Shown here in pieces: positions 629-57,383 of a stretch of DNA of 64,000 nt. The position numbers and the translations under genes are program-made. Every line of letters begins with the position of its first letter. Position 1 is the first letter of the stretch. Source of the stretch: Gonapodya sp. JEL0774 (lineage: Eukaryota); assembly GCA_027604505.1 (NCBI GenBank), contig JADIIX010000095.1, forward strand, positions 1-64,000. Direction: 5' to 3'. The notes beneath the pieces were generated by a model. That model saw only the letters and a program-made list of their open reading frames with translations. It was not told where the DNA came from and made no database searches.

Positions 629-750
629 TTTCAAATTGTTGACCAACCCATTTGGTCCCCACCGACAGAGATTAAAAAGCAAACCACCAGTGTAGAATGG
701 ACGATAGTATAAAAGGTTTCTAGACGAGGCCGACTAACACAGAGTGTGAC
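629..750 (+). pseudogene. Orphan 3' fragment (end of last intron, last exon, 3' UTR) of a third UPF0658-like paralog
   Basis: 629-750 closely matches ~6548-6665. The exon at 669-712 encodes (E)IKKQTTSVEWTIV*, versus (E)IKKQPTSVEWTIV* in the second copy. No upstream exons are recognisable; the sequence upstream is G-rich. Confidence 0.65.
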
Positions 751-8411: not shown

Positions 8412-10167
8412 CTCCGTTTCCAAGCCCATCACCGGCCCACTCGGTATCGACGCCATCGCCCGACAGCGTGTCGTGCGCTCCCAGAGAGCTCCGTTCGCTC
8501 TCAATGTTCTCGTGGCGGGCGAAACCGGATTGGGCAAGACCACCTTCATCAACACTTTGTTCGATTCGAAGCTGACGGATCAATGGAAGCGGGAGACGAT
8601 TGCCGCGAAGACGGTGGAAATTAAACCCGTCACGTACGGTGAGTTTAGTAGCTGCTTGTTGCCAACATTGCAGGAATGCCCCCTACTGGTGGTGTGGTCG
8701 GAGAGCATTAGGTGGCGAGCGAGATGAACTTGCTTGCGAACGGGGTCTGCCATTCAGTTGTGTCACCCAGGGTACAATCCCCGCACTCATTTCCACTCCA
8801 CCCCTCCAACAGAACTGGTGGAGCCCGACGACAAGGGCAAGGAGGTCGTTCTTCACCTCACCATTATCGACACACCGGGCTTCGGTGATGCCATGAACCG
8901 TGAGAGGGAGTGAGTGCAGCAAAGTTTTGTCGGCGGTCCGTTCGCTCTGACTTCACTGGCGTCGTTTGCACTTTCCAGCTTGGAACCCATTCTCAACTAC
9001 ATCGATAACCAAAACCACGGCTACCTATCCGCCGAAACTACTCACTCTGTCCGTGGTGATATTCGTGACACCCGTGTTCATTGCGTTCTCTACTTCATCG
9101 CGCCGAGCGGCACCGGGGGTCTCAGAGATGTGGACAAGTACTTTTTGAGGGCGGTTGGTCCAAAGGCCAACGTTATTCCATTGATTGCCAAGGCAGATAC
9201 GTTGACCCCGGAGGAGCTTGCGGCGTTCAAGAAGAGGGTGTGTTGGATATCTCATTTTGAAGACGCGACAACTTTCCATGCTAACAATCTGACTCACTCG
9301 AATATGTCCTTGTTCGCGCCCCGTGTTGTGCAGCTCCTGAAAGACCTTGAATCGTTCAGCTACAAGATCTACCCGCTCAACTGGTCCGAGGACCATGAGA
9401 ACTACAACTCGCTCGTGGTGAGTGGTCATGAACACTTTCGAAGCGTTTATATGGTGCATAGAGATAATGATTTTGCTTTTTTGTACAGCAATTCATGCCC
9501 TTCGCTGTGATTGGAAGCGACTACTACGTCGATGTCGGTGGGGGTAAGAAGGCTCGGGGTAGAAGTTACAAGTGGGGAAATGTGCTCGGTATGTTTTCTT
9601 CTTCAAGGACTCGCAACTCTCTTTTGTGGCTTACACCACATGCCACACATCCAGTCGAGGACCCCAAGCACTGCGACTTTATCTACCTCCGCGAACTCCT
9701 CATCCGCCGTAACCTCGTGGACCTCATCGATACCACCAACACCTTCCACTACGCTGGTCACCGTGGCACGAAGCTCTCCCGCGCCGGTCGCCCTCGTTCC
9801 ATCCTCGAGTGCGACGACGAGTACGACGGCAGGTTGGCTACGGCTAAGAAGCTCTCGTTGGAGGAGATGCAACGGAAGGAGGATGAGATTCGATCCAAAT
9901 TCGTTGCCCAGGTCAAGGAGACGGAGGCGGCGCTTCGGGAGAGGGAAGAAAAGGTGAGTTTTTGGTGATGCTCTGGTATCGCGGCTTTACACCTCGATGT
10001 GTTGCTGAGCGAACATCTCGTCCTTCACCTGCTAGCTCTCCAACGACTCCAAGCGTTTCACCGAAGAGCTCGAAAAACTCCGCTCTCAACTCGAGCACGA
10101 GGCCAAAGACCTGGAGGAGTTTGAGCGGCAACGGAACGCCAAGAGGGCGGCCCAGCAGATGCGATAA
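8412..10167 (+). CDS. Septin GTPase (first exon/start not resolved)
   Basis: G1 motif NVLVAGETGLGKTTFINTLF, G3 IIDTPGFGD, DTRVHCVLYFI, G4 AKAD, septin element PFAVIGS..RGRSYKWG..HCDF, and a C-terminal coiled coil. Confidence 0.95.
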
Positions 10168-10524: not shown

Positions 10525-13500
10525 CTACACGGACACCTGCTCCTGCTCTTTCGCCTTCCTCGTACTCGGGGTAGGGCCCGACGCGAAGTGTGCTGTGCAC
10601 GATTTGAACAATCTGCCAGGGTTACCACCCGAAATGATGTGCGAACGACTGGCGATATCGGGGGGAGTAGGGGAGTGTACATGAGAACGACAGAAAACAC
10701 CGTCGCGAACCCCTGTCGCGCCAAACGTGCACCGCATCGTCGCACAGCAACTCACACCACCAGCTCCTGACCCAGCGTGACGCCTCCGCCTCCCTGCTGC
10801 CTCATCACTTTGGCATCGATGTAGTACCTCAACAGCCCCTCCACCTCTTGCCTACTCAACACCGGAACCTCGAACCTGACCAAGCCCGGAATCTCTTTGA
10901 CCTCCTTGGCCACCGCGTCCATTTTCGGCGAGTGCAGGCCGACCACCTTGGTAGGATCCGGTACGCGGGCCAGTACCATGGCCGGGTCGTAAGGGGACGA
11001 TTTCCGCGGCGGGGCGGCAGAGACCGTGGTTTGTGCGTCCTTGGCGTTGATGATGGGCGCGGAGGCGAGGAGGGACTTGAGCGTGGGACTCTGGACCAGG
11101 GATTCGGACCCGTTGTCGGCGCCGATGAGGACGGCGTTGTGAAGGGTGGTTTTCCCCAGGAACGGGTTCAAAAAAGGTCGGACGAGGGAGAGGTGGGTCG
11201 AGGGGAGCGGCTCGTTGGTAAGCGAGGTGTAGGATGTGGTGGAGAGGAGTGCGGGGAGGGAGTCAATGGCGAGGAGGAGGGGGGGGCGGCTGGAAGATGG
11301 AAGAGAGAGTTTGGAAGGGGGAAGGTGTAAGCAACGTCTCGCAATCGAAAGGTGAGCGCATTCGACCGTCGCTGCATTTCAAATACCCCACAATCCCTAC
11401 CACAACCCCACCATCACTTCCCGCTCCTCCTCGCTCCCCACCCTTCTCCCCCACACCCCTCGGCCACCCAACACCCACCTCTCGTTCTCCACGCCCATCT
11501 CCTCGAAAAACGCCTCGAGCACCGCGTGGGCCTGCGCGGGATCCTTTGCTCCCACGGCCAACATTTCCGCCACGTTCGTCGTACCACCACCACCCGCCGG
11601 CATCTGCGTGCGGCCAAACGTGCGGGGTTTGGAAAGGGGGATCTGGGGAAGGGGTGGCGACGTGGGAGGTGCACCGGGGTGTGTGTGAGGTAAAACCGCG
11701 GGTCAGACACCACCCCGCCCCCCGCACGGCCCTCCCCCTCCGCGGGCCCACCTTTTCCAGCACGTGTGCGTTCATGGTCCTGATATCTCCCACCACGCGG
11801 GCCGCCAAGGCCGGTTGGTCGAACATTTGGGGGTCCCCGCTCCCATCGCGGGGTTGGAAAGGCTCCATGGCAGAGGTCCATTCGGCGGCTAGGAGGTGTG
11901 CGTGTGGGGGCGCCGGGGGGAGGGGCGGGGGTGACGGGACCGGATGATGACGTTGAGGCGAGGTGCTCCATCAGAAACGAGGAACGACGGACGAGGCGGG
12001 GGGAGGGATGGATAGCGATGGGCCACGCACGGTCCATGGTCCACCACCACTCACGAAAAAAAAGAACCCAAACTGCACGGCACGGCACATGCACGACGCA
12101 CAGTGCCCTACCCCACTTTCCATCCCCACCCCCACCCCCACACCACTCCCCGCTACTCACGCCTCGCCACATACACCACGACCCACCCCATCTCACTACA
12201 CCGGGCAGCGACCTGGACGAGCGTGGCGGACTTGCCCGAGCCGGGGGGGCCGCCTTTTTTTCGGGGAGGAGGGTGCGGGTGTGCGGGGGGGGGGAGGGGG
12301 AGGGGGAGTTACGCGATGTGGTGATGACGCGGTGAGGGTGGGACCGGGGCCCTGTCGAAGTGTGTTCAACTCACAGATGACGATCTTCTCTGCCTGCCCT
12401 GTCCGGGATGCGTCCTCCCCTCCCTGCCGGTGCAGGACCCGGTTGAGCAGGGCGAGGACCGAGGGACGGAGGAGGAGGGCGGGGGAGGGGGCGGAGGGAG
12501 ATGGGAGGGTGTGAATAGGTATGAAAGTTTACTAATAACAACAGCGCGACGGACAGTGCACACGGCGCACCCGGTCCACCCGGTCCACCGGTCTACAGGG
12601 TCCACAGAGTCTACAGGGTCCACAGGGTCCACACGGCGGACACTCAGTCCGCACCACACATATCCCCACAAGTCCTCCCCCCCCCCACCACCTTCCAAAC
12701 AGCAGGCCGGGCCTTGTCCCTTCCCCCTTTCCCCCCCTGGAGACCAGAAACCAACACAACTCACGGCGGACAAGTTCTCGAGGACGATCTTAGGGGGAGG
12801 TCTTTTCTCTGTGGGAGCGGTGATGGAGGTGAGGATGGAGGAGGAGCCGGGCTGGGGGTGGGATGGGGGATGGGGGATGGGGATTGTGGGAGTGGAGTGA
12901 GGCGGAGTCAACATGTGGAGTGTGCACATCAGAGAGAGGACAAAGGGCAAAGGGNNNNNNNNNNCTTGGTCTTTTGGTTCGGCCTCGGCCACCCACCCGA
13001 ATTTGGATATGGACGAGATGACGGTCCCGTCCGCGTTCCCCCATCCCTGCCACGTGTCCCTTGCTGTGCACTCCCCTCACGCACTCCCCCCTATCGCCCC
13101 GCCCCCCCCCCTCTCGGACCTTCCACTCACATCCCTCTCCAACGCCTTCGGCATCTTCTGAGTCCCCATGCGTTTCACAAAGGTGTCTGGAAGGCGGAGG
13201 ACGCGGTGGAGGTGGGATGGGGTGGAGGTGGACTTTGNNNNNNNNNNTTTTTGTGGGTGTGTAGTGAGGCGGTGTCAACATTGGGAGTGTGCACATCATA
13301 GAGTGGACAACGGGCAACGGGGGGGTGGAAGGGGGGTGGATGCGAGGGGTGAAAGACGTACTCTGTCGCCCGCGGGTTTTTTGACAGCGACTGCAGATTT
13401 TTTGAGAGGACCGGTTATTTTCTTTTTACCAGGGACGAGAGCTGTGGGTTGGGTGGGGGGTAGGGGGGGAGAGGGGAGGGAGAGTGAGAAGAGGGAGATG

Positions 13501-13710
13501 GGAGAAGGGAGGACAGAACAGACCGAGAAGAGAAGGCGATTGATGGAAGAGTCTGTGAGAAGGGAGAAGAGAGAGGGGAAGGGTGAGGGGAGTGGGAGAC
13601 AGGCAGTGAGGGACAAAGGAAGAGGGAGTGGGAGTGCGGGGGAGGTGGAGGAGCGATGGGGATTGGGGGGATTGAAAGAGTGGGAGACACGAGTGCGAGT
13701 GGGAGACATG
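10525..13710 (-). CDS. RSM23: Mitochondrial ribosomal protein mS29 (DAP3/Rsm23); 5' end approximate, spans two N gaps
   Basis: Walker A PPGSGKSATLVQ (~12200-12250), FDQPALAARVVGDIRTMN, FEVPVLSRQEVEGLLRYY, C-terminal ISGGNP. Confidence 0.8.
12570..12632. repeat. Degenerate 9-bp tandem repeat (ccggtccac / agggtccac), intronic
   Basis: About 7 imperfect units visible directly. Confidence 0.8.
12896..13322. repeat. ~58-bp imperfect direct repeat (12896-12954 and 13263-13322) within the mS29 gene
   Basis: agtgaggcggagtcaacatgtggagtgtgcacatcagagagaggacaaagggcaaaggg versus agtgaggcggtgtcaacattgggagtgtgcacatcatagagtggacaacgggcaacggg. Confidence 0.8.
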
Positions 13711-13922
13711 GGAGACACTGCAACGTCGCATTTGTGGGGCACGCGACTCCTGCCACTGCTGTCTGAGTGTGTGTGAATGGTGTGGAGGTGAAGAACCAGA
13801 ACCGGCCAACCTGGCTGTGGTCGCTGTGGTCATCACCCTCCTCCGCACACACCACCCTCGCACTCATCAATCACACACAATCACACGCCGCAAATCCGCA
13901 ATCCGCCGCACCGCACCAAAAG

Positions 13923-15363
13923 ATGGCCGCATCCGCCGCATCGTCTCTGCCGCTGTTCTTCTCTGTCACGTTCTCAGGCCAGATCGAGTCCGCCCATGTG
14001 GGTGTTTGGTGTGCCGGCGTCTCTCACCCCTCCCGTCCCCCCTACTCAAACTGTGCCACACCCCTCTGTCTTTCCAGTTTTCCCACCACAGCGATCTCTA
14101 CTGCAAGTTTTCCTTCCTCTACGGCCCAGACTGGGTGGTGGTGGCGGTGCGTACTCACACACGCACACCCGCACTCGATTCCCCCCCTCCACCACACTCC
14201 CCCTTATTCACCCCCTCTCCACCACCCACCACCACACTCCCCATACCCTCTCCAGGGCCTCGAAGAAGGCCTCACCCAAATGGCAAGCCCTGGTCCTGGC
14301 CCTGACTCCGCCTCAAAATCCTGCGTATGGAACTTCCCAATCGAAATCACTTTCAAGTCCACAAACGCTTTCGGTGCGTGCCTTTGTGTTGCGTCCGGCG
14401 TCCGGCGTGCGACGTGCGACGTGCGCCATGCGCCGTGCGTTGGGTTCTGGTTTCGGTTACCGCCCTACCCCAAAAGCCAACCGCTCAACCCCTCACCCAC
14501 CCCTTCCCCCACCCCCCCCCCCCCCCCAATCCCCAATAGGCTGGCCCCAACTCATCCTCTCCGTGTACGGCCTCGACAGTTTCGGCCGCGACGTGGTCCG
14601 CGGGTACGCGGCGCTCAGGATGCCCACAAAGGGGGGGAGGTGGGTCGCGGGCATTGTGGGGAGGTGGGGTGGGCGGTCGAATGGGGGCGGGTCGGATAGG
14701 GTTGAGGACACGTGTCGCAGCGGTGTGGTACCGTGTGGTACCGGGTGGGAACCATCACCCTCAGGGGGGGGGGCGCGTCGCAGCCTGTCGGAGCGTGTGA
14801 CACCGTGTGGTACCGTGAGGTACCACCGCCTTCATCACACTCTTTTGCGGGGCGGAGTGCCTCACCACGTACACCTAGTCCCACCACACTCACCACCCAC
14901 CATTTCCCCATTGCCCCCGTACCAGCACCACCCGCCATGCCCCCCTCTTCACCCCGCTCGCCACGTCCCCCTTCAACTACTACCTCTCCTGGCTCGCAGG
15001 CCGGCTGCCAGAGTTCGTCGACCCGGCGTTCGTGGGGAAGGGCGAGGGGAGGGGGGGTGGGTAAGCGGGGGGCCGGGGGGCCGGGGGGCCGGGGGGGGGC
15101 GCGGCCGTGTGTGTTTTTTTGGACTGGGGTGTGAGGTGGCCGTGCCGTTTGCTCACCATTGTTCCGCCCGCCCGCCCGCCACGCACGCACGCACAAAACT
15201 CTCACGCGCGCAACGCACCCCCCACCCCGCCCCGCGACGACAATGCCGCCGCCACAAAGTCACCCGTGTGACGAGCGCGGGGTCGGTCAAGGTGGTCGTC
15301 CACGCGTTGCAAAGGGATGTGGAGAGGTTTGGGTATGCGGTCGGGGTGGGGGGGGGAAGGTGA
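13923..15363 (+). CDS. B9D1: B9 domain-containing protein 1 (ciliary transition zone, MKS module)
   Basis: [79 protein letters not shown]. Confidence 0.93.
14720..14828. repeat. Intronic 10-bp repeat cluster (gtgtggtacc)
   Basis: Two pairs of gtgtggtacc/gtgaggtacc units inside a B9D1 intron. Confidence 0.7.
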
Positions 15364-16500
15364 TCGGGATTTGGGCGTGTGGGGGGGAGGGAGGGAGGGG
15401 GGGGGAAGATAGAAGGGGCGAAGGGGGGAGTGGAGTGGAGGGATGTGACGTAATTTGGTTTCTTGCTTCGTTGGTGTATTTCTTTCTTTCGTACAATGAT
15501 TATATATGTTTGTGTCATCACGGTGCACAACCTCGCTTCCTCGGTTTCTGCAAACCGAAGCGTCTGTCAAACCAGACTCGGCTGGTGTGTTTTCGCTCCT
15601 ATTGTACCCGGTTCCCTTCCACCACTGGTCTTGCACCGTGCACGACCGCAGGAGGAAACCGAAACCCGCCTGGCCTCTCGTCACTCTATTGAAAACAAAG
15701 CCTCCCTTAGTAGATGGCGAAATCTGCAAGGACCAAAACACCTACCGAAGAATCCCCCTAGGGCGCTGGTGAGCGCCTGCTCATAATTGCATGTCCAATC
15801 TCAGGGCTTTCTGCTCTCATCCGCTTGTGCGCAGCTTCGCACGACGAACTTCATCTCTCGCTATGAGATGAGCCCGCCTGAGTGACGGATGGTCTCTCAA
15901 GGACCGACTGCGCCTCTGAGCGTCCTGCCGCCTCCCACCGGCATAGCCCTCACGGCCAGTGCTCTCAAGAAACTCGTATATACAAGGCAGGTTTCATCAT
16001 TCAATCCGTGCTCGATGCTGCCGAGTGAAGCCTGTCCGGAGGAAGTTCGCGATCCCGGACCCACGTCTCTTCGAAAAAAACCCATTCACTAGGCCTGATT
16101 CGGAGAGGAATGGCAGACTCTGACCACGTCTCAGAGGCTACACCATGACCGCGTCTCGGGGTGTAGGGGGACGGCACAAACCAACGGCCTTCTGCTCCAA
16201 AGGCGCTTCACTTGGCGGCAACAGCGGGGTTTGGCACATTGATACGTGCATTTTGCCTTTTTGCAGAAAGACAAGACCTTACCACAATACTTACGCTGGA
16301 CCAAGTCATTGGGGAGAAGATAGATTTGAAGTTAGGCGTAGCTCCGAATCAGTGGACGCCTGAAAGTCTCGCCTGCGGCTCACACAGCACACATACATCG
16401 CAAGCCACACCCCGCATTACATGATCTCTTCCGACCGCTCAGGTTCCCGCATCACCTGAGTTAGGGAGACTTCAACATTAGCATCGACCACCTCTTGCAA

Positions 16501-20078: not shown

Positions 20079-22773
20079 ATGGGGTCGTCATTCTACAACT
20101 TCAAACGGATAGGCATTGTGGTGAGTGATCTCTGTACTCATTTTGTTCGCGGTTCTTAGTTGAGCTTATCGTTTCCCTTTCTCCCCATCTTTAGCCTCCT
20201 GCTGCTGGTGAGCTATCTTTGCAACTCAAGTCCCTATACTGGACTATACAACACTCAATCTTACCTTCTTTCTTTCCTTTCCGTGCCCGAACCGACAGAC
20301 TTCATTGATATCACATTGAGCAAAATCCAAAGGAAGACACCCACTGTTGTCCACCCGGGCTACCACATCAACCGTATTCGCCAGTTTTACATGCGGAAGG
20401 TTAAGTTTGCTCAGGATTGCTTTGAAGAACGCCTCACGGCCATTCTAACGGACTTTCCCAAGTTGGACGTGAGCTGGTTTGAGAGTGAATAATTGGAGGT
20501 CCAGGCCGACAATCGACACGGCACCCCCGCCTTTCCATAGGAAATTCACCCCTTCTATGCGGATCTTCTCAATGTTCTCTATGACAGGGACCACTACAAG
20601 CTCGCTCTTGGGCAAATCAACCAGGCAAAGCATCTCGTGGACAACGTTGCCAAGGACTACGTACGCTTACTCAAGTTTGGTGACTCCTTGTACCGCTGCA
20701 AACAGCTCAAGAGAGCTGCACTTGGACGGTATGTTGTCATGTGCTGGAGTGTAACCCCGTGTTGGGGCTTCTGGTGGGATATGCTTAAGTACGCGTTTTG
20801 CAGGATGTGCACCATCATGAAGAGGCAGAAGGACTCCCTCTCCTACCTCGAGCAAGTTCGCCAGCACATGGCACGTCTCCCATCCATTGATCCCAACACT
20901 CGCACTCTTCTCGTCTGCGGGTATCCTAATGTCGGCAAATCGAGCTTCATGAACAAGCTTACTCGAGCTCAGGTCGACGTTCAACCGTACGCCTTCACCA
21001 CTAAAAGCTTGTTTGTGGGACACATGGACTACAAATATTTGCGTTGGCAGGTTCGGTCCCCGTTCGTGATTTCGTATAGATAGCCCGGAGTTGATTCAAT
21101 CTCCCCGTCCCATTTTGCAGGTTATTGACACTCCTGGTATTCTCGACCATCCTCTTGAGCAAAGAAACACAATCGAAATGCAGTCTATCACAGCTTTAGC
21201 TCATCTGCGGGCTTGCGTCCTATTTTTTATTGACTTGACGGAACAGTGTGGATACAGCGTGAAGCAGCAGGTGAGATAGTGATGGAAGGTCCGTATGGTC
21301 GTTGTTTTATTTACGTCTACAATTTTCAATACCGCAGGTTGATTTGTTCCACTCTATCAAACCTCTTTTTGCGAACAAACCGACAATGGTTGTCATAAAC
21401 AAAATTGATATCCGGAAGCTCTCAGATCTTCAAGGTGAAGAAAAGGAGTTGGTGGACTCAATGCTGTCCAAGGATGGCGTGGAGCATTTCGAGTTGAGCT
21501 GCTATACAGACGAGGGAGTGATGGAAGCCAGGAACAAAGGCTGTGACATTCTGCTCCAATCTCGGGTTGAATTGAAAGTCAAACAAAACAAAGTTGGAGA
21601 CGATGTGTTAAATAGATTGCACATGGCAGTGCCCCAAGCGAGGGATGAGAAGGTGGGTCGGTGCGCTTGGTTATGTTGTCGGATGGAAGTAACGTGCGGA
21701 ATCGTCATTAGGAACGCCCAGCTTTCATTCCCGACGCAATCGTGGCGCGGAGAAAGGCCAAAGATGCGAACGCGATGGAAGAAGATGAGGAACTACAACC
21801 GAGGAAGTTGGAGAAGGACATCGAGCTGGAGAACGGAGGGCCTGGCGTTTACAACTATGACCTGAAGAGTGCGTACGAAGCGTATTGGTTCGATTTCTGT
21901 CTCCAGTCCAATCGTTTAATTGCTGAATCGTGTTCAGAGCTGTACCTCTACAAGAACCCCGAATGGAAGCACGATATAATCCCGGAAATTATGGACGGAC
22001 ACAACGTCGCCGATTTCTTCGATGAGGACATTGAGGAGCGGCTTGTCATGCTTGAACGCGAAGAGGAACGCTTGGAGGCCGAAGGTTTCTACGAGGAGGA
22101 AAGTCTACTGGGAGATTCTGATGATGAGGCATTGGATAAGGCCGTGAAGGAAATGTTCAGCAGAAAGAAGGTTGACCAAATCACTGCTAGGCTCGGGGCG
22201 ACAAAGAAGGGATTACGCAGGGGTGTGGGACCGAGGGTGCGTTCTTGTCAGTTCCGAGCCTTTCACCTTTACAATGATTGATTCCTTTCACATAGGCTGC
22301 TGCCCCCGGGGATTTCGAGGGTATGCTGAAGAAGCGAGGGCTGTCTGTGGATGCGAGTGTTATTCGGAGTCGCTCAATAGCTACAAAGAAACGAACACGA
22401 GATGAAGCGGATATGGACGTGGACGAGCCAGCAGTGGAAGCCTCTGCGGCGGCCCGATCCAAGAGCAGGATTACATCATTGCAGAGAAGCCGATCAAAGG
22501 GAGCTAGTGTCGCTCGAGAACCATCTGAAATGGGTCTTCGAAACAAGAAGGTGTGTTTCAGCCTTATGCCATTCGTGTGGAAGGGCAAGGTTTTCATGAC
22601 ATTGTTCTGTCTTTGCACAGCAAAAACGTGATGCAGAAAAATTGCGAAACTTATCTCAAGTTTCACGTAATCTTCACGGCCGGGCAGGCGAGGCTGACAG
22701 GCATATTGCCGTCAAGTTGCCGAAGCATCTCTTCTCTGGGAAACGCGGGATTGGTAAAGCGGATCATCGTTAA
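20079..22773 (+). CDS. NOG1: Nucleolar GTP-binding protein 1
   Basis: [64 protein letters not shown]-terminal [17 protein letters not shown]. Confidence 0.98.
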
Positions 22774-24567: not shown

Positions 24568-26965
24568 TTACATCACAGAGCAACGATCACGATCCATTTG
24601 TTTCCCATACTCTTTTGATCCCCGTTTCGAAGATGGCGCTGATGGAGGGCCACCCCCACCATGTACTTCCCGCATCATCAATTTCACTTCATCGTCAGTC
24701 AACTTTTCTCCTCTGGCCATAAGCACAGACATCTCCGAGAGAAGCACCTGCCACGCTCTCGCCTCCCTTTGCCGTTGTTCATCAGAGATATGAGCTCGTA
24801 CAACGCCGATCGCGTAAACAACGCCTGCGACCATGGCTTTGTAGTCCTCCAAGGTTAAACCGAGTTTGGCTTTGTGCATGTGCCCAATGAGGAACAGATC
24901 CGCCACCACCTCCCGATGATTTCTCCCCAGAGATCGGTGAGTTTGTGTGGCAATGGTATCAATAATTTTTATGAAGGGGAAAGACTCCGGAGAGCTGTAC
25001 AAGCGCTCGTAGGCTGAAAACATGAGCAACCCGGTCGGAAAAAGACTCATGCTCTCACCACCATCGCATCGCACTCACAAGCACTTTGTGAAAACAAGCA
25101 TTCTTTTGTGAGCTTACCCTGCACGCGCAGATGGACAAGGACATCAAACCACAGCGCGAAAAGAAGCCGAGGAACTCTTGATTACTCACAAACAGGTCTG
25201 TCGCATCATCCCTTTTGATAGCTGACCAGCTCGTCACCACATCATCCATCTGTTTCTTGGTCACGTCGACAGTCAAATCTTCCCAGTGCCCCTTCTTTGA
25301 GTTAATAAGCGCATTCCAGTCCATATCCAGTTTCAGATAAGGCACTTTGACACTGGCGGTGTGGAAAGAACGTTGTTCAACCGAAACTCGTGATTCAGAA
25401 GGAGTAGCGTGGGCGCTAGACATGGGGGGGACCTGATTTGCTGAATGTACCGAACGGGAGGGCTGGACAGAGGCAGCTCCGGAGCCTGGTCCATTGCTGG
25501 GAGGAATCGAGGCAGCATCTGAATTTGCAGTGTTTGGTGGTGTTCGCAGTCTTTGGTATTGAAGGAAATGCGTGTTCACTCGGATCTCTCTTTGAGAGGG
25601 GTTGAAATACCTGCCAACTGGCACTCACTTGATGACCATGGCTTTGAGAAGCATGTTCTGGGGCGCGTCACCGTCAGAGAAGGCTTGTTCGAAATCTTCC
25701 GGCGACAAATCAGCGAAGCGAACCATCCTCCACAGGGAGTCGGTTGCAGTATCTCCGAGACCCTGGTGTGTCACGATGTAGTTGCGAACCACCACGTACC
25801 CCGCTGCCGCAGAAAGTATCGTATCACCGTGCTCGTCTGGGAGCGATCCATGTTCAACAGTCGCTCGGAACAATTCCGGAGACGCCGCGTTGAGCGAACC
25901 GGGTTCCGTCGCAAGCTTGTTAGCAAGCGCTCGCAACACAAACTGTCTAGGCACTTGAGGATCGTGGTAAGCCGCTTCAAGGTCCTGCAGCGACAAGCGC
26001 TCGAATGGCACCTGAGACCACAGTGCGATGATGTTGTCTTGGTCCAGGGCGTCGGTTGAACGGGATTTGATAGCAACATATCGTCGCACCAGGTCGAAGT
26101 TCTTTCCCAGGTCTGCGTAGCCAGCAATGGTAGCAAACGCCTCAAAGGAGGTATTGGCAAGAGTCTGGTCCGATGCTTCGCTGCCCATGATGCGTTCCAT
26201 TAGAACGCTCATGGCCCTTCGCTCAATCGTAGGCACCCCCCATGTCCTTGCCTCCTGCGCAATGACGTGTAGCTCATCAGTGTGAGTCGTAGGTTTGTCG
26301 ATGGCCGTACGCAAGAGGTTATCAGCATAGGCGTTCAGGCGAGCGAGCCGGAATATTTCCGAGACCCGGTGGATTCCGATAACCTGGTCCCACTTGGTCT
26401 CGGGCAGCGTGACCTCTCCGTCGTCGAGGCTGTAAATCCACCACAAGCACAATCCGAGGACTTCATGCCGCGACTTGTGGGCAGGGAGGATTGGGACGTG
26501 GTAGATTGGCAGACCCTTGGAGCTGTAGCCCGGGACGGGACCCGGGGCGTTGAAAAGGTCATTAAAGAAAGGGCTTCGGTATGCGAGAATGATTCGATGT
26601 ACCGGAAGAGATGATATCTGAAAAGTAGACAAAGGTGGAGCAAGGAGAGTACCCCATGTGAGGCAACATCATGGAACGCAGGATCAATACCTGCCCACCT
26701 TATTGTCGGACGTTCGAATGTGAAGGAGAGCATCTGCAAATCTTCCTTCTGTGAGAAATGGAAGGAGGCCCGAGGTACTGACGCTTCCCATAGAGCTTGA
26801 ACCTGCCACAGAGCTCTTTCTGGAAGATTCATACGAAACGGTAGAGAGAAGAGTCTGGGAGGCATGAGAAGGGTGACCGGCAGGCAGTTGACCCTGCGAG
26901 GAGTGAAAGAGTGCAAAGTCGCCCGGCGATTGCGGGGACAGAGGCCGTTCGCCGTTTCCCATCAT
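24568..26965 (-). CDS. BTB/POZ + two BACK/NPH3-like repeats + C-terminal globin-like domain (paralog A)
   Basis: BTB: GRFADALLHI..LPVHRIILAYRSPFFNDLF. C-terminus after splicing: VTKKQMDDVVTSWSAIK..LFGKLTKECLFSQSASYERLY..IGHMHKAKLGLTLEDY..AWQVLLSEMSVLM. Confidence 0.85.
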
Positions 26966-30009: not shown

Positions 30010-32544
30010 ATGCCGTCCAAGAAGAGAAAGACAGGAACTGGAGCATCAGCCCGCGGTGATGCTTTATCTGTCTCCGCCTCCACGCCACGGGCCAATACGG
30101 AGGAGAGATCTGGGGAAAATACTTTGAAGCTCATCGCTCGCTTGGAGCACGAGTTCACCACATCACGAACGAATGCGAACAACCTTTTGGAACTTTTGAG
30201 CATTGCAGTAAGCGGAAACATGGCGCTTCTTAGCTCCATGTGCCATTAACCATCTGTTTTGCAGAAATCCGAATCAAATCCTGAAGTCGTACATGCCGTT
30301 CTCCAGTCTCTTCAACGCATATTTGTGGCATTGCTAAAGGATGGAGAGCTGGACAAACCTTCAAAGAAAAGTGTTGGTAACTCCGAGGAGCTTGGGATGG
30401 CAGGCAAGCCCAAGGCTCAGAAGAGGAACCGTGATGGAGAAGAAGCAGATGCACTTGACAACTCGCCCGAAGTAGCCATACGCAGTTGGCTTCGGAGGAC
30501 ATATTCGGAGTATCAAGAGGTACTTCTAGTTTCTTTGAGAAGTGATGAAGCTGCTGTACAGGTGAGCATTTCGGAGAAATGGAACTACAAAAGTGCTGGC
30601 TTGAGGTTTCTATGGAACAATTATATGCCACAAGGTCACGTTGGAGCAGATTTTCTCATGACACGTGCAATAGATTGGGTGGATGGCGTCTGTCGCACCT
30701 CCTTGAGTTACCTACCGCACTCATGATGATGTTTATCAGCTTCTCGCGCTTCGCCTGTTCCTCGCTCTCGTCAAACTCTCCACCATCCGCCTCTCGCACC
30801 GCTCTCGCTCTTACTCCTTCGACGCCGCCCTTATGTATCGCGCAGTTGAGGCGCTCGTCCTCGTTATGGAACCGACCCAGACAGATACTAAGAAAGTGGA
30901 GGACCGAAACGATGAACCAGTTGGGGACACGTACACGATAAAAATGAAAAAGCGTGAGGCGAAAAGGAGAGCAAGGTTCGAGGCTCATCTGGGACCAGCA
31001 ATTGTCGAGGCGGCAACAAAGTGGGATGATGTGAGATTGTTTCTGTGGAGAGGTGTAACCAAGGCATGCGATAACTGGACAACCGAAAGTAATGCTCAGA
31101 AGGTGAAAGCCACAATCTTTGAGATGTAAAGCGGAAACACTCTATAATTTTATTTTACTCTCGCTCTAGGCGTCGACAATCCCACCTACAGCTCCGTCCA
31201 CTCTCTTCTACATTCTTTCCTCTCTCCCTCCCCCATCGTCAACCCCTCCCGCCTCCTTTTTGGCTGGTGACCCTTCGTCCTTCCACAAGAGCACCAGCAA
31301 ATCTGAGCCCCCCCAAGTCCTGGACCCTGACATCTACAAGCGCGCCTTCTCTGACGCGTGGCTTGCCCTGCTCCGTGTGCCTCTGGATGATGCCACACTA
31401 GAAGAGGCCCTCGTGGTAGTGCACAGGAGGATCGTACCTCACATGACGGGTCCAGCGAGACTTATGGATTTCTTGACCGCCGCGTACGACTCTGGTGAGC
31501 AGTTGTCTGTGTAGTTCTCAAGAATCGCTCCGCTTGTGACACGAAACGTCTTCTTGGGCTCTTATGCCCAATGCTCCCGGATGGTAGGCGGCGTGTTGTC
31601 GATATTGGCCCTCAACGGTGTATTTGCGCTTGTCCAGCATCACAATCTGTGAGTCACGAATGAGTGTTCACATTCCTAGACGCCTCCTCGAACAGCGCGA
31701 CGCGAGTAATCCTCCTGTGATTTGGTTCTAGGGACTACCCAAATTTCTATCCCAAGCTGTACCGGCTTCTTGATGAAGATCTGATGCGTGTGAAGTACCT
31801 CTCTAGGTTCCTGAGGTTACTAGACCTATTTTTAAGTTCATCGTAAGTTACCGCCAAGACAGAGAAAAGGGAGCAGATCAACTCAATGATACTCAACATT
31901 CCTCCTGTTCTTATCCTGAAGTCACCTACCAGCCTACCTTGTCGCCGCCTTCGCTAAACGCCTCTCGCGACTCCTCCTTCACGCACCCCCGGCGGCCTGC
32001 ATTGCCGTTCTTCCCTTGATTCACAACCTCCTAAAACGACACCCAGCGTGCTTAGTCCTCATTCACCGATCCGACGCACAAATCGCCGACTGGCGCACAC
32101 AGCTTGTTGCAAAGGGTGGGACAGGCACGGGGTACCCCGATCCTTACGATCACACAGAGCAAGATCCAGCAAAGTGTAACGCGTTGATGTCGTCGTTGTG
32201 GGAGGTCAAGACTATGAGAAATCATTACTTGCCAGCGGTGAAAGGCCTAGCGAGGGCGTTTGAGGACCGGATGGGCAGGGAGGAGTTTACCCTGGAAGAA
32301 TTTTTGGACGAGGATTATGTAACGGTATGTTGTCCGTTGAGTGGTGAGGGATTTCGGTGGTGGAAAATAGTCGATAGCTGATTATGTTATGGGCAAACCC
32401 CTCCGCCAGCTGCTTGAAGCGGAGTTATCACGGAAGATGAAGGTCGATGCCCCACCCATTGGTGCCAAAGTAGACCTGAGCTGGATTGAGAAGGACAAAC
32501 AGTTCGCGAGCATTATCAAGGAGTGGAAGAGTGCCAAGAAGTAG
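30010..32544 (+). CDS. NOC4: Nucleolar complex protein 4 (CBF/Mak21 family)
   Basis: YKRAFSDAWLALL, LMDFLTAAYDSGGVLSILALNGVF, DYPNFYPKLY, HLPAYLVAAFAKRLSR, DPAKCNALMSSLWE. Confidence 0.93.
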
Positions 32545-36447: not shown

Positions 36448-38972
36448 CTACATAACTCTGCATTTCTTGTTCGCCTCCGGTCCCTTAGCACCCGGTCGTA
36501 CCCGCGACCTACCCCCATCCCATGACATCCGACTGCTGTTAGACTGCGGAGCTTTTGTACCACGACCGTCCGTCCCCTCCCCATGCACAGCGCGCATGAG
36601 GGCAGACCGTTCCTGCTCCGTCATCTTTTCGCCCCTGTACATGATGGCCGACATTTCGGAAAGGAGCACTTGCCACGCGTGGACTTCCCGGGCTTTTTGA
36701 TCCGAGGAGGCATTGCCGTGAACGGCGGTCATGGCATAAACACTGTCAAGTCAGGAGAACTACTGTCTTGAACCCAGAATCCATGCAGAAAGGTACCTCC
36801 CGCAAAACCACTTACACTGAAACGGTCATCGCTTTGTAGTCGTTAATGCTCAGACGCAAGCGCGTCCAGTGCATGTTCCCAATAAGCATCAGGTCCGCAA
36901 CCACTTCTCTTTGATTCCGGCCAAGGGATCGGTGCGTCTGCGTTGCGACTGTATCAATAATTTTAACGAAGGGAAACGAATCAGCTGAAGCGAAGAGCTT
37001 CTCGTAATCTGAGGTGGGAGGTAGGAGTTCAGGCTCAGAACTTTCCAGAACAAGGCAAGCCATTCCGTGTTTACCTGGATTCTCGGTAAAAAGGCATTCC
37101 TTGGTTAGGCGCGCCTGCATAACACAGAAGACATGTAGACAAGTGGTGAAACATAATGAGTGATTTCGCCAAAGTTATATTTCAGCTCACAAACTCCTCC
37201 ACAAGTCCATCCCTCCTCAAGGCGCTCCAGCTTGCGACGACATCATCCATCTGCCTCTTCGTGATATTCAGAGTCAAATCTTCCCAGTGATCTACCTGCT
37301 TGGACTTAATCAAGGCCGTCCAGTCTAAATCGCCTTTGGAAATGGGTGTCTGAGGATGAACACTTGAGCCGGAGATCCGAGATTTGCTGCTAATGGAGCT
37401 ACGAGCACCATCAGGACCAAAAGGACCTTGGGGACCATGAGGAGAGGAGGGCGGTGTCATATGGTCACCGTAATAATTTGACGAGGGTCCTCTTTGAGAA
37501 GACCCCACGGTAGGAGGGGGCAAACTAAGTCTGATGGAGGAAGAGCAGTCAAGACATGAGGCAATTTGGCAACGCAAGTCGATGCCCCAACTCACTTTGA
37601 GAACATCGCTTTGAGCATCATATCCTGGGGAGCTATTGCTTCCGCAAACGCCCTTTCTAGCTCCTCTACAGATAGATCCACGAATTTCACCATCGTCCAC
37701 AGTTCTAGGCGCGCCCTCTCATCTACTTCCTGGTGGTTTAGTACGTAGCCTCGAATAACGCCATATGCCTCGGGTGCTCGTAACGCCGAGATACCCGCAG
37801 CGTTGGGAGTTGTGACTTGCTTTATCAGAGACCGGAAAGCGTCTGGTGACATCGCCAGAAGAGCCGCAGGATTGTCCATAAACTCCGGGAGTGGGGGCGC
37901 TTTAGGTACTTCTGGCATCACTGGCTCCATTTCCGACTGATTGAAAGGTACCCGCGCCCACAAAGCATCCGCCTGTTCCCGAGACAGTGGCTTGCCTGCT
38001 CGATGCTTGGCATCTGTATAGCGCTGAACGAGGCCGTAATTTTTGACTAGGTCCGCGTGCTCCAGAAGGCTGGCGAAGGTGTCGTAAGAGGTGGCGGCAA
38101 GGGTGGCGTCAGACGCATCGGAGGACACCACATTCGCAATTAGAGAGCTGATGCAGGTAGTTAATGTTTAGATGAATCGTTTGTGCGGAAATATCACCTA
38201 TGTGAGCTCACTCCATTGCCCGATGCTCAATATCTGGGCAACCCCAAATTCGGCCCTCTTTCGCTATTGTGTACAAATCGTCCGGCAGAGTGCTCTGATG
38301 TTCAATGGCCGAATGCAGGAGGTGTGCAGAGTAGTCGAAGAGTGTGCCTAGTTGGAAAAGATCGGAAATGCGATGGATGCCGACAACCTGATCCCATTTT
38401 GTATCCGGTAGTGTGAGTTCGTGCTCATCCAGACTGTATATCCACCAGAGACACAATCCTAAGACCTCATGCAGGGAAGGATGAGCAGGAAGTACGGGTG
38501 TTTGGTAAATGGGAAGCCCCTTGGGACTTATGGTGGGTTGAGTGGAAGAGAAGAGCTCATAGAAGTAGGGACTCCTGTATGCGAGTACGATTCGGTGAAT
38601 GGGCAGAGAGCTCGACTAAGATTGGAAAGCAACCCGAGTAGGGGAATAGATGAGCATCAGCTTGTGTCGAACCTTCAGTGTCGTCCAAACCTGTCCCAAT
38701 TGAGGGCGGCAACGATTTACCTTCTCCTCTGTCGTTTTTATCTGCAGCAGAGCATCAGCAAATGTCCCTTCCTTCAAGAATGGCAAAAGTCCAGACAAAT
38801 TGCCCGGCATCGCCCCCCCTGTACCACGGGCTCGTGCCTTGCCCGGTGCAGTGGAGGTTCCCGACATCCTTCCGGTATTCGATGTTATTGTGTGCTGCGA
38901 TCCAAGAGAGTTGCGCGATGAGTAGAGAGTCGATAGCGTTGAGTCGTCGGTGCCCCCGTGACTGGCGAGCAT
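36448..38972 (-). CDS. BTB/POZ + BACK/NPH3-like repeats + C-terminal globin-like domain (paralog B)
   Basis: BTB: GTFADALLQI..LPIHRIVLAYRSPYFYELF. C-terminus after splicing: ITKRQMDDVVASWSALRR..EEFARLTKECLFTENPDYEKLF..LIGNMHWTRLRLSINDY..AWQVLLSEMSAIM. Confidence 0.85.
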
Positions 38973-39105: not shown

Positions 39106-40908
39106 TCACATGCGAAAAACTAGGGAGCTCGAGTCATCCGAAGCTGTGACGACGGTACGGCCGTCTCTGCCAAACAACAAACAGAGCACCACGAACCAAG
39201 CGTCAGACAGATTAAACGTACGAACGGTTTGATGACAGAGGTGGTACCAACCTCGAGAGCGCAAAGTCCAAAATTGGCTCCCGATGGCCTGTCCAGGTTC
39301 TCTCACACGCTCCCGTTCGAGCGTCCCATACTCGAACGGTTCGGTCGGTGGAAGAAGATGTAATCAACGGGGATGAGGTGTGCCAGGAGAGGCTAGTGAC
39401 GCCGTCCTGAGAGCAAGAGAGAAATCGACAGGAAATCAGATTCCCGCCATGACGGGGAGGAATTGGCGGTCAAAAGACAAACATCGTCAACTCGCACTGT
39501 GAGACATTGTCTGCCTTAGCCGTAATGTTTGTACATCCCAGAGTTTCAAAGAGCCATCAAGGGAACCTGTGGCAAATATTGGTAGTCTGAGGGCAGAGGA
39601 GCAACAATGTGTCAAATCATGCCCGTTACTGAGGTTGGAAACTGGTAAACGTGCTCATCTTTCTACTCACGTCGGAGAAAAGCCCACCGCCTCGACAGAG
39701 TCCGTGTTTCCCTCAAAGGAACCAAGTATCTGCATGTTTGAAAAGCGAAGATTGAAACGAAAAACTTTGATTGTTAAAGATTGAACACACTACCAACCTT
39801 TCCGTTACCAAGGTGTAGCAACTTCGCCGTTCCATCTTCGCTTCCGGTTCCCGCAACAGTTCCATCAGTCTTGACATCCACGCAGGTGATGGTGTCGCCA
39901 TGCCAGCGTGCGTCTCCCCCGCTCAGCTTTCGAACAAGATGTCCATTCTTGGGATCCCAAACGGCGAAACTACCGTCTTCGGACCCAGAAACCACCGTTT
40001 TCCCATCCGGTGTGAACATTCCACAAGATACTGGGCCAGTGTGGCCACCAGAGAACACAGACATACAGGAGCCTGTGGGCGCGTTCCACATCCAAACAGT
40101 CGCATCGGAAGTTCCTGCCAACAGAACAGCACCGCGAGGATGCCATTTAATCCACTATATTGGAGTGGAAGTGGTTCACGTGAGTGTAACAGGTAGTCCA
40201 TGAGGCAAGCGAAGTTGTGGAATAGACCACTTACTGTTATTTCACTGGGTCCTTGAAGATTTTGCACCAACTTGCCATCTTGAACTGACCACACCTTCAC
40301 TACACCGTCCATGCCTCCAGTCGCAACAAGCTTTCCGTCACACGAGAACCCAGCAGAAATAACAGAGTCTGTGTGGCCAGACAGCTCAAAAGCAGGTTGA
40401 CCTGTGTCCGTGCGCCAAACGTACGCTTTGTCGTCCTCCCCACCCGTAACTGCGAGTGTTTGATCCGTTGGGGATAACGCAACACAGAATACCGAACCTG
40501 TGCAAGGAGAAGCACAGGCCATACCCATGAATTGCCATGTCACGGTATTGGAAGTAATCTTTTAATACCATTGTGACCCAAAAACCCTGCTATGGAGTCA
40601 TCTTTTATCTCTTCCATGGGTTCACCTTCTGACGGAGCATATGTACGAGCAGAAAGGAAACCAATACCACATTAGAATAACGGTGAGCAAGGATTGAATA
40701 AGAGGATCTGAAACAAACCACCGACATCTTCATCCTCCCCATCATCCAGGACGTCTGGTCCTTCGTCGGCATCGGAATCCATTGCAACATCTTCATCCTC
40801 CTGGACAACCTCCTGCGCCTCTCCATCATCAAGATACACGGCTCCCTCATCGTCACCATCGATACTCTCTGTGTCGTGGGGCTCGTGCTCTGGTTGATGG
40901 TCGTTCAT
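39106..40908 (-). CDS. SQT1: WD40 ribosome assembly chaperone Sqt1/AAMP
   Basis: Acidic N-terminus, then [54 protein letters not shown], ending [11 protein letters not shown]. Confidence 0.9.
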
Positions 40909-43375: not shown

Positions 43376-46183
<2,808 letters not shown>

Positions 46184-50468: not shown

Positions 50469-51723
50469 TCACGAGTTCATCGCCTCTTGCCTCACCCGTC
50501 TTGTAGGCGTCCCTACAGGCTCTGTAGCAATGGGTTCGAGTTCCGCAAGCGTGTCGGAGGGAGTTGGGAGAGCTTGTCCCAGGAGACCTGTCGGGCATGA
50601 ACATTTGACCAAAGTTAGTTTCATTACTAGCGAGATGAATGGTCCGAGGTGCAGATGTGAGGAATATAGTGCAGAACGGTGGTGACTGTGACTCGCGCGA
50701 TAATTTCGTTCTTCATCCTCTCATCCATATTCACCCGCTGCCCTGGGTTCTGCCGCGCCCCCAAACCCAACAAACCAATTACCATACTAAACCCACCATC
50801 TGTTACTTCGAACAAAACCTTGTCAACTTCCATCTCTGCCTCTTCTTCTAGTTCTTCTGCGTCTGCTCCATCGATGACAGTGTCCAACGCCTCCGAGACC
50901 ATTTCGTCCGCAACCCCGGCTTTCACCATCTCCTTTTGCAGTTCTCTCATCTGCTGGGAAATTTGAGGTAGGGAAATCACGTGATTCACTGAGCGCATGA
51001 GTTGAGCAGATTTTTGCAGAGTGCCGACGAGCTTGGCTTGTGCTTTCGGGACGCGGTAAAAACACAATTGGCATTAATCAGAGCGGACAGGGGAATGAAG
51101 GGGTTGGGGAAGGGGCAAGGAGGGAGAGTGCGATGAAAGAGGGGGACAGGGGTCAAATGGGGACAGATGTAAAACGACCTGCCCGCCCGGAAGCACCGTG
51201 AATTTTCATTCAGCTTACCAAGAGCTTCGTTAAGTTGTAAGCCAATTGAACCCAGCTGGGCTTTGCCGGTTGCCAATCTGTCCCTCGTCTTCCTCCCGTA
51301 CACAATCTGCTTGGCCAACATTCTCGCAGAAACCTTGTCACCCCGTTTCGCTGCCTTCTGCAGTTCCCGTTTCGCTTTATCTTCCTCCATTTGAATGGCG
51401 CGAGTCTGCCTGTCGAGTTCCCGTTGCTGGTTTCTCACATCAGTACGCCATTTCTTAACCTGTGTTCCCAGCCAGCAAACAAGGAGCTTGAGGGCAATTA
51501 CAGCAAGGTAAAGATTGAGGCACGATCTCACTTGTTCATCTGGTGTAAGCTTCCTGCCTGAAATATGCCAGATTCAAGGAAATGAGGGAGGGAGCATCAG
51601 TTGGAGGCTTGCTCGGTCATGTTCCTCCTTGTATACTCGGGCTAATGTGCTTCATGGAAACACCTCAAGCAATATCGACGCACCGAACAGCGCTTTCGTT
51701 ATGTTCAATTGTGAGCCGGACAT
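50469..51723 (-). CDS. VPS24: ESCRT-III subunit Vps24/CHMP3 (3' end approximate)
   Basis: TPDEQ|VKKWRTDVRNQQRELDRQ, KAQLGSIGLQL, GTLQKSAQLM, ELQKEMVKAGV, EVDKVLFEVT. Confidence 0.93.

Positions 51724-55566: not shown

Positions 55567-57383
<1,817 letters not shown>

What the first reader, a model, noticed from the sequence alone, without database searches (positions are those of the whole stretch)
36448..38972. BTB/POZ-globin fusion: candidate heme/O2/NO-sensing CUL3 ubiquitin-ligase adaptor (paralog B)
Seen after removing three short introns (~37290-36620): ITKRQMDDVVASWSALRR (A helix with Trp), FARLTKECLFTENPDYEKLF (B/C helices with C2 Pro and CD1 Phe), FVKIIDTVA (E), LMLIGNMH (F helix, proximal His F8), LRLSINDYKAM (FG/G) and AWQVLLSEMSAIM (H helix). 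This order and spacing match the 3/3 globin pattern. The N-terminus is a clear BTB domain. Known: BTB-BACK proteins are CUL3 substrate adaptors, and fungal globins are mostly flavohemoglobins or single-domain/sensor types. Inference: a ligand-gated degradation or signalling module. I know of no described BTB-globin architecture. The CD-E segment is short and has no obvious distal His/Gln, which suggests an atypical pocket.
Basis: partly seen in the sequence, partly recalled or inferred. Interest (0 to 1): 0.86.

Follow-up and report, generated by a model that had tools for sequence, protein, structure and literature searches.

The report
Lipid-anchored BTB-globin fusion in water mould
This fungal gene joins a BTB protein-interaction domain to a predicted haemoglobin-like domain that standard databases miss, and it ends in a lipid-anchor signal shared by a whole undescribed globin family of the genus Gonapodya, so it likely acts as a membrane-bound oxygen or redox sensor; a link to protein degradation is possible but untested.

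Summary
Seven exons with GT-AG introns splice to a stop-free 691-aa BTB–(BACK-like)2–globin protein. It has a paralog 9.5 kb away, and both have orthologs in Gonapodya prolifera.

Pfam misses the globin. A family profile hits only globins in the PDB (17 of 17, best E 1.8e-4), and the ortholog's AlphaFold model matches the 3/3 globin fold (Z 13.2). The proximal His is invariant, and no distal His or Gln is seen.

The protein ends in a CaaX prenylation box. It is also one branch of a globin family found only in Gonapodya, in which 12 of 12 members keep F8 His and CaaX while the N-terminal module varies (BTB-BACK, PB1-like, low-complexity).

The CUL3-adaptor reading is weaker: the α3-β4 loop has no acidic residue in 4 of 4 proteins, so no φ-x-E motif.

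Best reading: a prenylated, membrane-tethered heme sensor with a BTB scaffold. Heme binding, prenylation and expression are untested. No BTB-globin or prenylated globin was found in print. The scan noted a CaaX globin before in yeasts.

The parts
36448..38972 (-). Gene B coding region: 7 exons (38972-38721, 38615-38212, 38147-37596, 37530-37191, 37114-37075, 37008-36816, 36742-36448), 691 aa
   Evidence: Stop-free splice with six GT-AG introns. Four of the six introns sit at the same aligned position and phase in paralog A. Ortholog P0003.
38313..38792 (-). BTB/POZ domain (aa about 61-185), split by intron 1; alpha3-beta4 loop without an acidic residue
   Evidence: PF00651 above cut-off. ESM Atlas features 0.91 to BTB clusters. 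Loop inspection.
37527..38312 (-). Two BACK-like helical units (aa about 186-292 and 312-404)
   Evidence: Atlas structure rows are BTB or BTB-BACK proteins, TM 0.43-0.49 by query. The full model hits KBTBD2 (prob 0.99, E 0.06). The internal repeat is seen in paralog A (21/64 identical, pairwise E 6e-10) but not by BLAST in B. No Pfam BACK hit, so this is a likeness, not a family call.
37266..37331 (-). Family-specific two-tryptophan motif just before globin helix A (aa 470-491)
   Evidence: Present in 11 of 11 family members that reach this region.
36628..37265 (-). Divergent 3/3 globin domain (aa about 492-632) over four exons: Trp504 (A12), Lys521 (B10), Pro529 (C2), Phe535 (CD1), Gly573, His576 (F8), Asp586/Tyr587 (G4/G5), Trp617 (H8)
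   Evidence: Profile against PDB, 17 of 17 hits globins. AF2 model of the ortholog's domain, pLDDT 70.8, VIA Z 13.2. Residue table.
36869..36871 (-). Codon of proximal His576 (F8)
   Evidence: Aligns with the F8 His of haemoglobin zeta. Invariant in 12 of 12. Coordinate.
37009..37074 (-). Intron 5 (66 nt, in frame, no stop); kept in the public model P0004, where it puts 22 aa into the globin C helix
   Evidence: Ortholog P0003 and paralog A lack the insert. Paralog A has a 65-nt intron at the same position and phase.
36580..36627 (-). Extra helix after globin helix H (aa 633-648), opened by a conserved Arg-Gly
   Evidence: Predicted helix 151-162 of the domain model. Arg-Gly invariant in 11 of 11 rows of alignment A4.
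36451..36462 (-). C-terminal CaaX box (Cys688-Arg-Val-Met) after a basic, flexible tail
   Evidence: Cys at -4 in 12 of 12 family members, with aliphatic a2 and Met or Gln as X. Net charge +4 in the 15 residues before it in B. Motif rules from passages of PMC1175975.
24568..26965 (-). Paralog A: 5 exons, 700 aa, same BTB-(BACK-like)2-globin-CaaX layout
   Evidence: tblastn in the window, gene model, ortholog P0002.

Best explanation
One spliced gene encodes a BTB domain, two BACK-like helical units, a predicted 3/3 globin with an invariant proximal histidine and a C-terminal CaaX box, and the protein likely works as a prenylated, membrane-tethered heme sensor of oxygen, nitric oxide or redox state whose BTB part likely dimerises it and recruits partners. 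Shown by sequence and comparison: the gene structure, the domain order, the conserved His and CaaX, and membership of a Gonapodya globin family in which globin plus CaaX is constant and the N-terminus varies. Predicted: the globin fold. Inferred: heme b bound through His576; farnesylation (X = Met) with the basic tail holding the protein on a membrane; a distal pocket without His, Gln or Tyr (E7 is Ile546 or Pro542 by register, B10 is Lys521), which suits ligand or redox sensing better than oxygen storage; and signal output through the N-terminal module. An ancestral globin-CaaX gene likely gained BTB-BACK once and then duplicated before the two species split.
For: Gene; introns conserved between paralogs; 4 of 4 public models join BTB and globin; the G. 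prolifera B linker has no Met that could start a separate globin. Fold: 17 of 17 PDB hits of the 11-sequence profile are globins, best E 1.8e-4; VIA best Z 13.2, rmsd 2.6, 130 aligned, all 50 rows globin-fold, with non-heme RsbR rows lower at Z 9.9-10.3; 46 of 47 Foldseek rows carry globin or heme-protein titles; Atlas features 0.88 and TM 0.71 to globin clusters. Heme: F8 His, Gly at F8-3, G4 Asp and H8 Trp are invariant in 12 of 12 proteins that are only 23-30% identical across the deepest split. Anchor: CaaX in 12 of 12 although tails differ in length and sequence (8/29 identical between paralogs). Modularity: 8 of 12 members have no BTB; 2 carry a PB1-like N-terminus (34% identical to each other; Pfam PB1 E 0.022, under cut-off, in one of them); the BTB forms are one side of a branch with 97/97 support. 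Precedent: lipid-anchored animal globins with a redox role (abstract of PMC3520999; passages of PMC7771090).
Against: No experiment, and no evidence of expression. No Pfam or NCBIfam globin hit. The 3-sequence profile found no globin in the PDB, only calmodulin at E 0.3-0.7 on the extra helix. No Foldseek row reached E 0.001, and only one of five AF2 models was confident (70.8 against 47-50). The folded sequence is the ortholog's, not the window's own. The full-length model has pTM 0.33 and a 47-76 residue low-complexity linker separates BACK and globin, so nothing shows how a heme signal reaches the BTB part. The basic patch before CaaX is absent in 4 of 12 members. A CaaX box need not set location: RhoBTB3 reaches the Golgi without its own.
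Confidence: 0.5

Rival explanations
1. It is a CUL3 ubiquitin-ligase adaptor on membranes: BTB and the first BACK hairpin bind CUL3, and the globin sits in the substrate-binding position and gates ubiquitination by gas or redox state.
For: The BTB-BACK-C-terminal-domain layout matches KLHL, KBTBD and BTBD adaptors; Atlas structure rows are such proteins and Foldseek finds KBTBD2 in CRL3 complexes (prob 0.99, E 0.06). The BTB is well conserved (120/125 between orthologs). KCTD proteins bind CUL3 without phi-x-E. RhoBTB3 is a membrane-associated CUL3 partner with a CAAX motif (listing and passages of PMC3812982).
Against: The alpha3-beta4 loop has no Asp or Glu and is 10-12 residues of variable sequence in 4 of 4 proteins, whereas loss of that Glu severely disrupts CUL3 binding in KLHL3. 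8 of 12 family members lack BTB, so the family's core job does not need a ligase.
Confidence: 0.2
2. The globin is a membrane-bound redox catalyst or protector (NO or ROS scavenger, or electron-transfer centre) like GLB-26 or globin X, and BTB-BACK only clusters or places it; no signal passes to the N-terminus.
For: Long flexible linker and no fixed domain arrangement in the model. Several members have only low-complexity N-termini. Membrane globins with redox roles are described.
Against: No reductase domain is fused in any of 12 members. Recruitment of two different interaction modules (BTB-BACK, PB1-like) fits signalling better; this is inference.
Confidence: 0.2
3. The domain has the globin fold but binds no heme, as RsbR does, and serves as a protein-interaction or lipid-binding module.
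For: No Pfam globin score. CD1 is Ile in 2 members and B10 is Lys in the BTB clade. RsbR-type rows appear in the fold search.
Against: F8 His is invariant in 12 of 12 at 23-30% identity and aligns with the haemoglobin F8. Heme globins outrank RsbR by about 3 Z units.
Confidence: 0.06
4. BTB-BACK and globin are two neighbouring genes joined wrongly by gene prediction.
For: All models are predictions. The donor of intron 3 holds an in-frame TGA, so an unspliced transcript would end right after BACK in both paralogs. B has a Met in the linker.
Against: The gap is only 65 nt (78 in A) with GT-AG ends, at the same position and phase in both paralogs. The G. prolifera B linker has no Met. 4 of 4 public models are fused.
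Confidence: 0.04

Closest known systems
Lipid-anchored animal globins (globin X and X-like; C. elegans GLB-26)
   Same: 3/3 globin with a lipid-attachment signal, read as membrane-bound and non-respiratory (passages of PMC7771090; abstract of PMC3520999).
   Different: Those are N-myristoylated or palmitoylated and have no BTB. Here the signal is a C-terminal CaaX. The word 'prenyl' does not occur in the main text of PMC7771090, PMC7457136 or PMC7475203.
BTB-BACK CUL3 adaptors (KLHL3, KEAP1, SPOP, KBTBD2, BTBD family)
   Same: BTB followed by BACK-like helices and a C-terminal domain. KEAP1 is a redox-sensing adaptor.
   Different: No phi-x-E motif, a duplicated BACK-like unit, a globin in place of Kelch, and a CaaX tail. 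CUL3 binding is untested.
Fungal globins (flavohaemoglobins, single-domain F globins, S globins, T1 globins incl. the LRR-T1 chimera of Allomyces)
   Same: Fungal globin domain inside a larger protein, some with long N-terminal extensions (passages of PMC3287990).
   Different: No reductase domain. None of these families was reached in the sequence searches. 'BTB' does not occur in that paper's main text.
Globin-coupled sensors (HemAT, DosC, AfGcHK)
   Same: Globin fused to a putative output domain; fold matches at Z about 10-11.
   Different: Those have an N-terminal S-family globin and a C-terminal enzyme or transducer. Here the globin is C-terminal, scores best with F-type and animal globins, and the partner domain is a scaffold.
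RhoBTB3
   Same: BTB-containing, CUL3-associated, membrane-located protein with a CAAX motif.
   Different: It has a Rho-related ATPase domain and no globin, and its Golgi location does not need the CAAX motif.
S. cerevisiae Ynl234w
   Same: Fungal haemoglobin-like heme b protein of unknown function. An earlier scan note says its family keeps a CaaX tail; I did not check this.
   Different: It was not among the hits, and no BTB is mentioned in the passages I read.

Membership tests
Globin superfamily, 3/3 fold | Helices A-H in myoglobin topology | tested here: met
   AF2 model of the ortholog domain; VIA Z 13.2, rmsd 2.6, 130 aligned, 50 of 50 rows globin-fold; Atlas TM 0.71. Predicted structure only.
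Globin superfamily, 3/3 fold | Sequence homology to known globins | tested here: met
   Family profile: haemoglobin zeta E 1.8e-4, 17 of 17 hits globins. Single sequences give only E 0.13-0.19 and no Pfam Globin hit.
Heme-binding globins | Proximal His F8 | tested here: met
   His576, 12 of 12, aligned to F8.
Heme-binding globins | Phe at CD1 | tested here: met
   Phe535 in B. In the family Phe 4, Tyr 4, Ile 2, missing 2 of 12.
Heme-binding globins | Distal His or Gln at E7 (respiratory and most F globins) | tested here: not met
   E7 is Ile546 by the alignment, or Pro542 if the register is one turn earlier. Neither is polar.
Heme-binding globins | Actual heme and gas binding | not testable with these tools
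   Needs spectroscopy.
Flavohaemoglobin | C-terminal FAD/NAD reductase domains | tested here: not met
   No such Pfam domain; the protein ends 59 residues after the globin.
Globin-coupled sensor (S family) | N-terminal globin with C-terminal output domain | tested here: not met
   The order is reversed and no enzyme domain is found.
BTB/POZ proteins | PF00651 above gathering score | tested here: met
   31.2 bits against 20.5.
BTB-BACK CUL3 adaptors | BACK domain or 3-box after the BTB | tested here: inconclusive
   Helical units and structural likeness; no Pfam BACK hit.
BTB-BACK CUL3 adaptors | phi-x-E motif in the alpha3-beta4 loop | tested here: not met
   No acidic residue in the loop in 4 of 4; motif defined. 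The loop was located by sequence pattern, not by superposition.
BTB-BACK CUL3 adaptors | Binding to CUL3 | not testable with these tools
CaaX-prenylated proteins | Cys at -4, aliphatic a2, Met/Gln/Ser/Leu as X, flexible hydrophilic linker | tested here: met
   12 of 12. Linker and a1/a2 rules from PMC1175975 passages; the full list of X residues is recalled.
CaaX-prenylated proteins | Prenylation and membrane location in vivo | not testable with these tools
   Needs labelling or imaging.

The most novel reading that the evidence does not exclude
A farnesylated, membrane-bound CUL3 adaptor whose substrate-receptor domain is a heme globin, so that oxygen, NO or redox state directly switches ubiquitination at the membrane. 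It would be a direct gas-gated E3 ligase receptor, built on an undescribed modular family of prenylated sensor globins in early-diverging fungi, with the Lys at B10 found only in the BTB clade as a switchable distal group.
Probability: 0.15. Interest if true: 0.88.

Novelty: new variant of a known kind. Interest (0 to 1): 0.62.

Why it matters
Known eukaryotic membrane globins are anchored at the N-terminus, and known sensor globins carry enzyme outputs. This family would add a C-terminally prenylated globin class that swaps interaction modules (BTB-BACK, PB1-like), in a fungal genus whose proteins carry no Pfam globin hit. It shows that globin counts built on Pfam can miss whole families in early-diverging fungi. 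It gives a small, testable candidate for oxygen or redox sensing in a zoosporic aquatic fungus. If the BTB part binds CUL3, it would link gas sensing directly to protein degradation. The limit is its range: so far one genus.

Tried and rejected
No whole genome is held for this window. No RNA holder was listed; this says nothing about expression. Pfam and NCBIfam gave no globin or BACK hit. Weak hits to IU_nuc_hydro (E 0.035-0.11), GlpM and calmodulin (E 0.3-0.7, extra helix only) were rejected as chance. phmmer of paralog A's BTB-BACK exon against the PDB gave 0 hits at E 10. A predicted BTB-BACK homodimer gave no verdict (score 0.42, one control 0.33) and is not used either way. Searches for relatives outside Gonapodya found none: 9 of 9 hits among 1.84 billion representatives, 6 of 6, 4 of 4 for the BTB-BACK part, 4 of 4. 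The word-index searches were length-limited and one search missed known members, so they are weak evidence of absence; stand-alone relatives of 90-360 aa were covered only, with a 3-sequence profile. A metagenome scan gave 196 pattern matches, none confirmed. Literature: globin + BTB + 'chimeric globin' 0 papers; six phrasings of prenylated globin 0 papers; 16 papers with 3 of 4 terms, of which one holds 'BTB domain' and is on haemoglobinopathy gene editing (listing only); searches listed nothing on this architecture. The library holds open-licence papers only and I read no supplements. The public model that keeps intron 5 was rejected as the main form, though it could be a minor isoform. BLAST did not detect the BACK-like repeat in B.

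Full report
Gene structure. The region is an intron-rich fungal gene on the minus strand. Six GT-AG introns of 64-105 nt give a 2076-nt frame and a 691-aa product without an internal stop. The same call found a second copy at about 24.6-26.8 kb. I modelled it as 5 exons and 700 aa at 26965..24568. Four of B's six introns lie at the same aligned column and phase as A's four introns. A search with A's unbroken last exon returned 4 proteins among 315 candidates: the public models of A and B, labelled Gonapodya sp. JEL0774, and orthologs of both in Gonapodya prolifera, all called hypothetical or BTB domain-containing. The public model of B keeps the 66-nt intron 5, which is in frame; the ortholog and the paralog lack this insert. 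The fusion rests on prediction only. It is supported by the conserved 65-nt intron between BACK and linker, and by the lack of any Met in the G. prolifera B linker.

Selection. Against its ortholog, B is identical at 120/125 positions in BTB, 134/144 in the globin, 19/40 in the linker and 20/37 in the tail. Between A and B, pN is 0.22 (BTB) and 0.26 (globin) against a saturated pS of 0.77-0.80. Both domains are under purifying selection.

Is it a globin? Curated models say nothing: no Globin hit in Pfam or NCBIfam for any member tested. phmmer of the ortholog gives three myoglobins at E 0.13-0.19, and a 3-sequence profile gives no globin. With 11 family members the profile gives haemoglobin zeta at E 1.8e-4, and all 17 PDB sequences up to E 1 are globins. 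AlphaFold2 on the ortholog's domain gave one confident model of five (pLDDT 70.8, pTM 0.69). Foldseek listed 47 rows, 46 with globin or heme-protein titles, none at E 0.001 or better. VIA-align against 48,161 chains gave best Z 13.2 (rmsd 2.6, 130 aligned), and all 50 rows shown are globin-fold proteins; the full-length model repeats this at Z 13.7. The tool warns that Z near 13 can be a common helical arrangement, but the uniform list and the independent sequence result make the fold secure. The ESM Atlas agrees (features 0.88, a lead by its own scale; TM 0.71).

Heme pocket. By the alignment, Trp504 is A12, Lys521 is B10, Pro529 is C2, Phe535 is CD1, His576 is F8 and Trp617 is H8. That alignment deletes the segment holding the distal His and makes E7 Ile546; a register one turn earlier makes it Pro542. 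Either way the distal side has no His, Gln or Tyr. B10 is Lys in the 4 BTB-fused proteins and Met, Leu or Phe in the 7 others that cover it. Heme binding is inferred from the invariant His. A role of Lys521 as distal ligand is speculation.

The family. An HMMER search of 1.84 billion representatives returned 9 proteins at E 0.001 or better; all are Gonapodya proteins. With A, B and their orthologs this makes 12 proteins, 7 from the window's species and 5 from G. prolifera; I left out the two public models of A and B in favour of my own. Identity over the globin falls to 23-30% across the deepest split. F8 His, the Gly three before it, G4 Asp and H8 Trp are invariant in 12 of 12. A two-Trp motif precedes helix A in 11 of 11 that reach it, and an extra helix follows helix H. 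All 12 end in Cys-x-(Val/Met)-(Met/Gln), although Cys is 0.8% of their residues and the tails differ in length and sequence. This fits the CaaX description in passages of PMC1175975: free a1, aliphatic a2, small hydrophilic linker. The N-termini differ. Four have BTB-BACK; two have a PB1-like domain (34% identical to each other over about 100 aa; Pfam PB1 E 0.022, under cut-off); five have long, mostly low-complexity N-termini; one is a fragment. In a tree of the globin-CaaX part the BTB forms lie on one side of a branch with 97/97 support and split into A and B pairs. The root is unknown, so a single gain of BTB followed by duplication is the simplest reading, not a proven one.

The BTB part. 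PF00651 passes its cut-off. The Atlas places residues 1-352 of the ortholog with BTB and BTB-BACK proteins by features (0.91) and structure, and Foldseek finds KBTBD2 at E 0.06. The helical region looks duplicated (paralog A halves 21/64 identical; not detected in B). No relative of this part was found outside the four proteins. In dimeric KLHL and SPOP adaptors a phi-x-E motif in the alpha3-beta4 loop inserts into CUL3 (passages of 10.1101/2023.02.15.528651), and the E85A change in KLHL3 severely disrupts binding (passages of PMC3616122). Here the loop has no acidic residue and varies in length in 4 of 4 proteins. KCTD proteins bind CUL3 without the motif (passage of 10.1101/2023.09.20.558662), so this lowers the ligase reading without excluding it. 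I had no CUL3 sequence to co-fold.

How it likely works. The CaaX cysteine would be farnesylated and, with the basic tail, hold the globin on a membrane, where O2 and NO concentrate (established knowledge, recalled). The heme, bound through His576 in a non-polar distal pocket, would change ligand or redox state. The BTB-BACK part would dimerise the protein and recruit partners, as PB1-like domains would in the sister proteins. How the signal crosses the 47-76 residue linker is not shown: the full-length model has no fixed arrangement (pTM 0.33). I give this reading 0.5, the CUL3-adaptor reading 0.2, a purely catalytic or protective membrane globin 0.2, a heme-free globin fold 0.06 and two separate genes 0.04.

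Comparison and novelty. Lipid-anchored globins are known in animals through N-terminal acylation (passages of PMC7771090; abstract of PMC3520999). The fungal globin census lists flavohaemoglobins, S globins, single-domain F globins and T1 globins, and its main text has no 'BTB' (passages of PMC3287990). A 2020 review has neither 'BTB' nor 'prenyl' in its main text (PMC7475203, term search and passages), and PMC7457136 has no 'prenyl' (term search only). Searches for BTB-globin and prenylated globins found nothing relevant in an open-licence library; I read no supplements, and the species table of PMC3287990 could bear on the claim. RhoBTB3 is a precedent for a CUL3 partner with a CAAX motif (listing and passages of PMC3812982). 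I confirmed only that Ynl234w is listed as a haemoglobin-like heme b protein of unknown function (passages of PMC13722074 and PMC4494051). The neighbours are unrelated housekeeping genes and give no functional clue.

Verdict. The fusion is real as far as sequence can show, the globin call is right, and the anchor and the modular family are new additions. It is a new variant of a known kind (chimeric, lipid-anchored globin), so far confined to one genus. Interest 0.62.

Noticed in passing
window 24568-26965 (-): Paralog A, same layout as B. Its public model P0001 has a different N-terminus and skips most of the linker; my 700-aa model matches the G. prolifera ortholog from the first Met.
   Followed up: yes
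P0010 and P0012, residues 1-105: Family members with a PB1-like N-terminal domain fused to the same globin-CaaX core: a second undescribed globin architecture.
   Followed up: partly
P0005: Holds the pre-globin motif twice (241 and 516); the first globin copy stops after the C helix. It may be a gene model that merges two tandem copies.
   Followed up: no
P0012, globin C-CD region: Lacks about 13 residues including C2 and CD1, probably a missed exon in the public model.
   Followed up: no
window 11001-16000: GC-rich stretch (0.59-0.65 against about 0.49 elsewhere) with many long overlapping frames; part hits the ciliary B9-C2 domain.
   Followed up: no
window 1-1000: Strong G over C skew (0.41), probably low-complexity sequence.
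   Followed up: no
window 8914-9968, 20541-22281, 31920-32381, 39774-40561, 45523-46077, 50627-51573, 55567-56394: Neighbouring genes by Pfam: septin, NOG1 GTPase, CBF/Mak21, WD40 repeat, RRM protein, Snf7 and acetate kinase. No shared theme with the globins.
   Followed up: partly
window 37595 and 25628 (donors of the intron between BACK and linker): The donor holds an in-frame TGA in both paralogs, so retention of this intron would give a BTB-BACK-only protein without globin or anchor.
   Followed up: no
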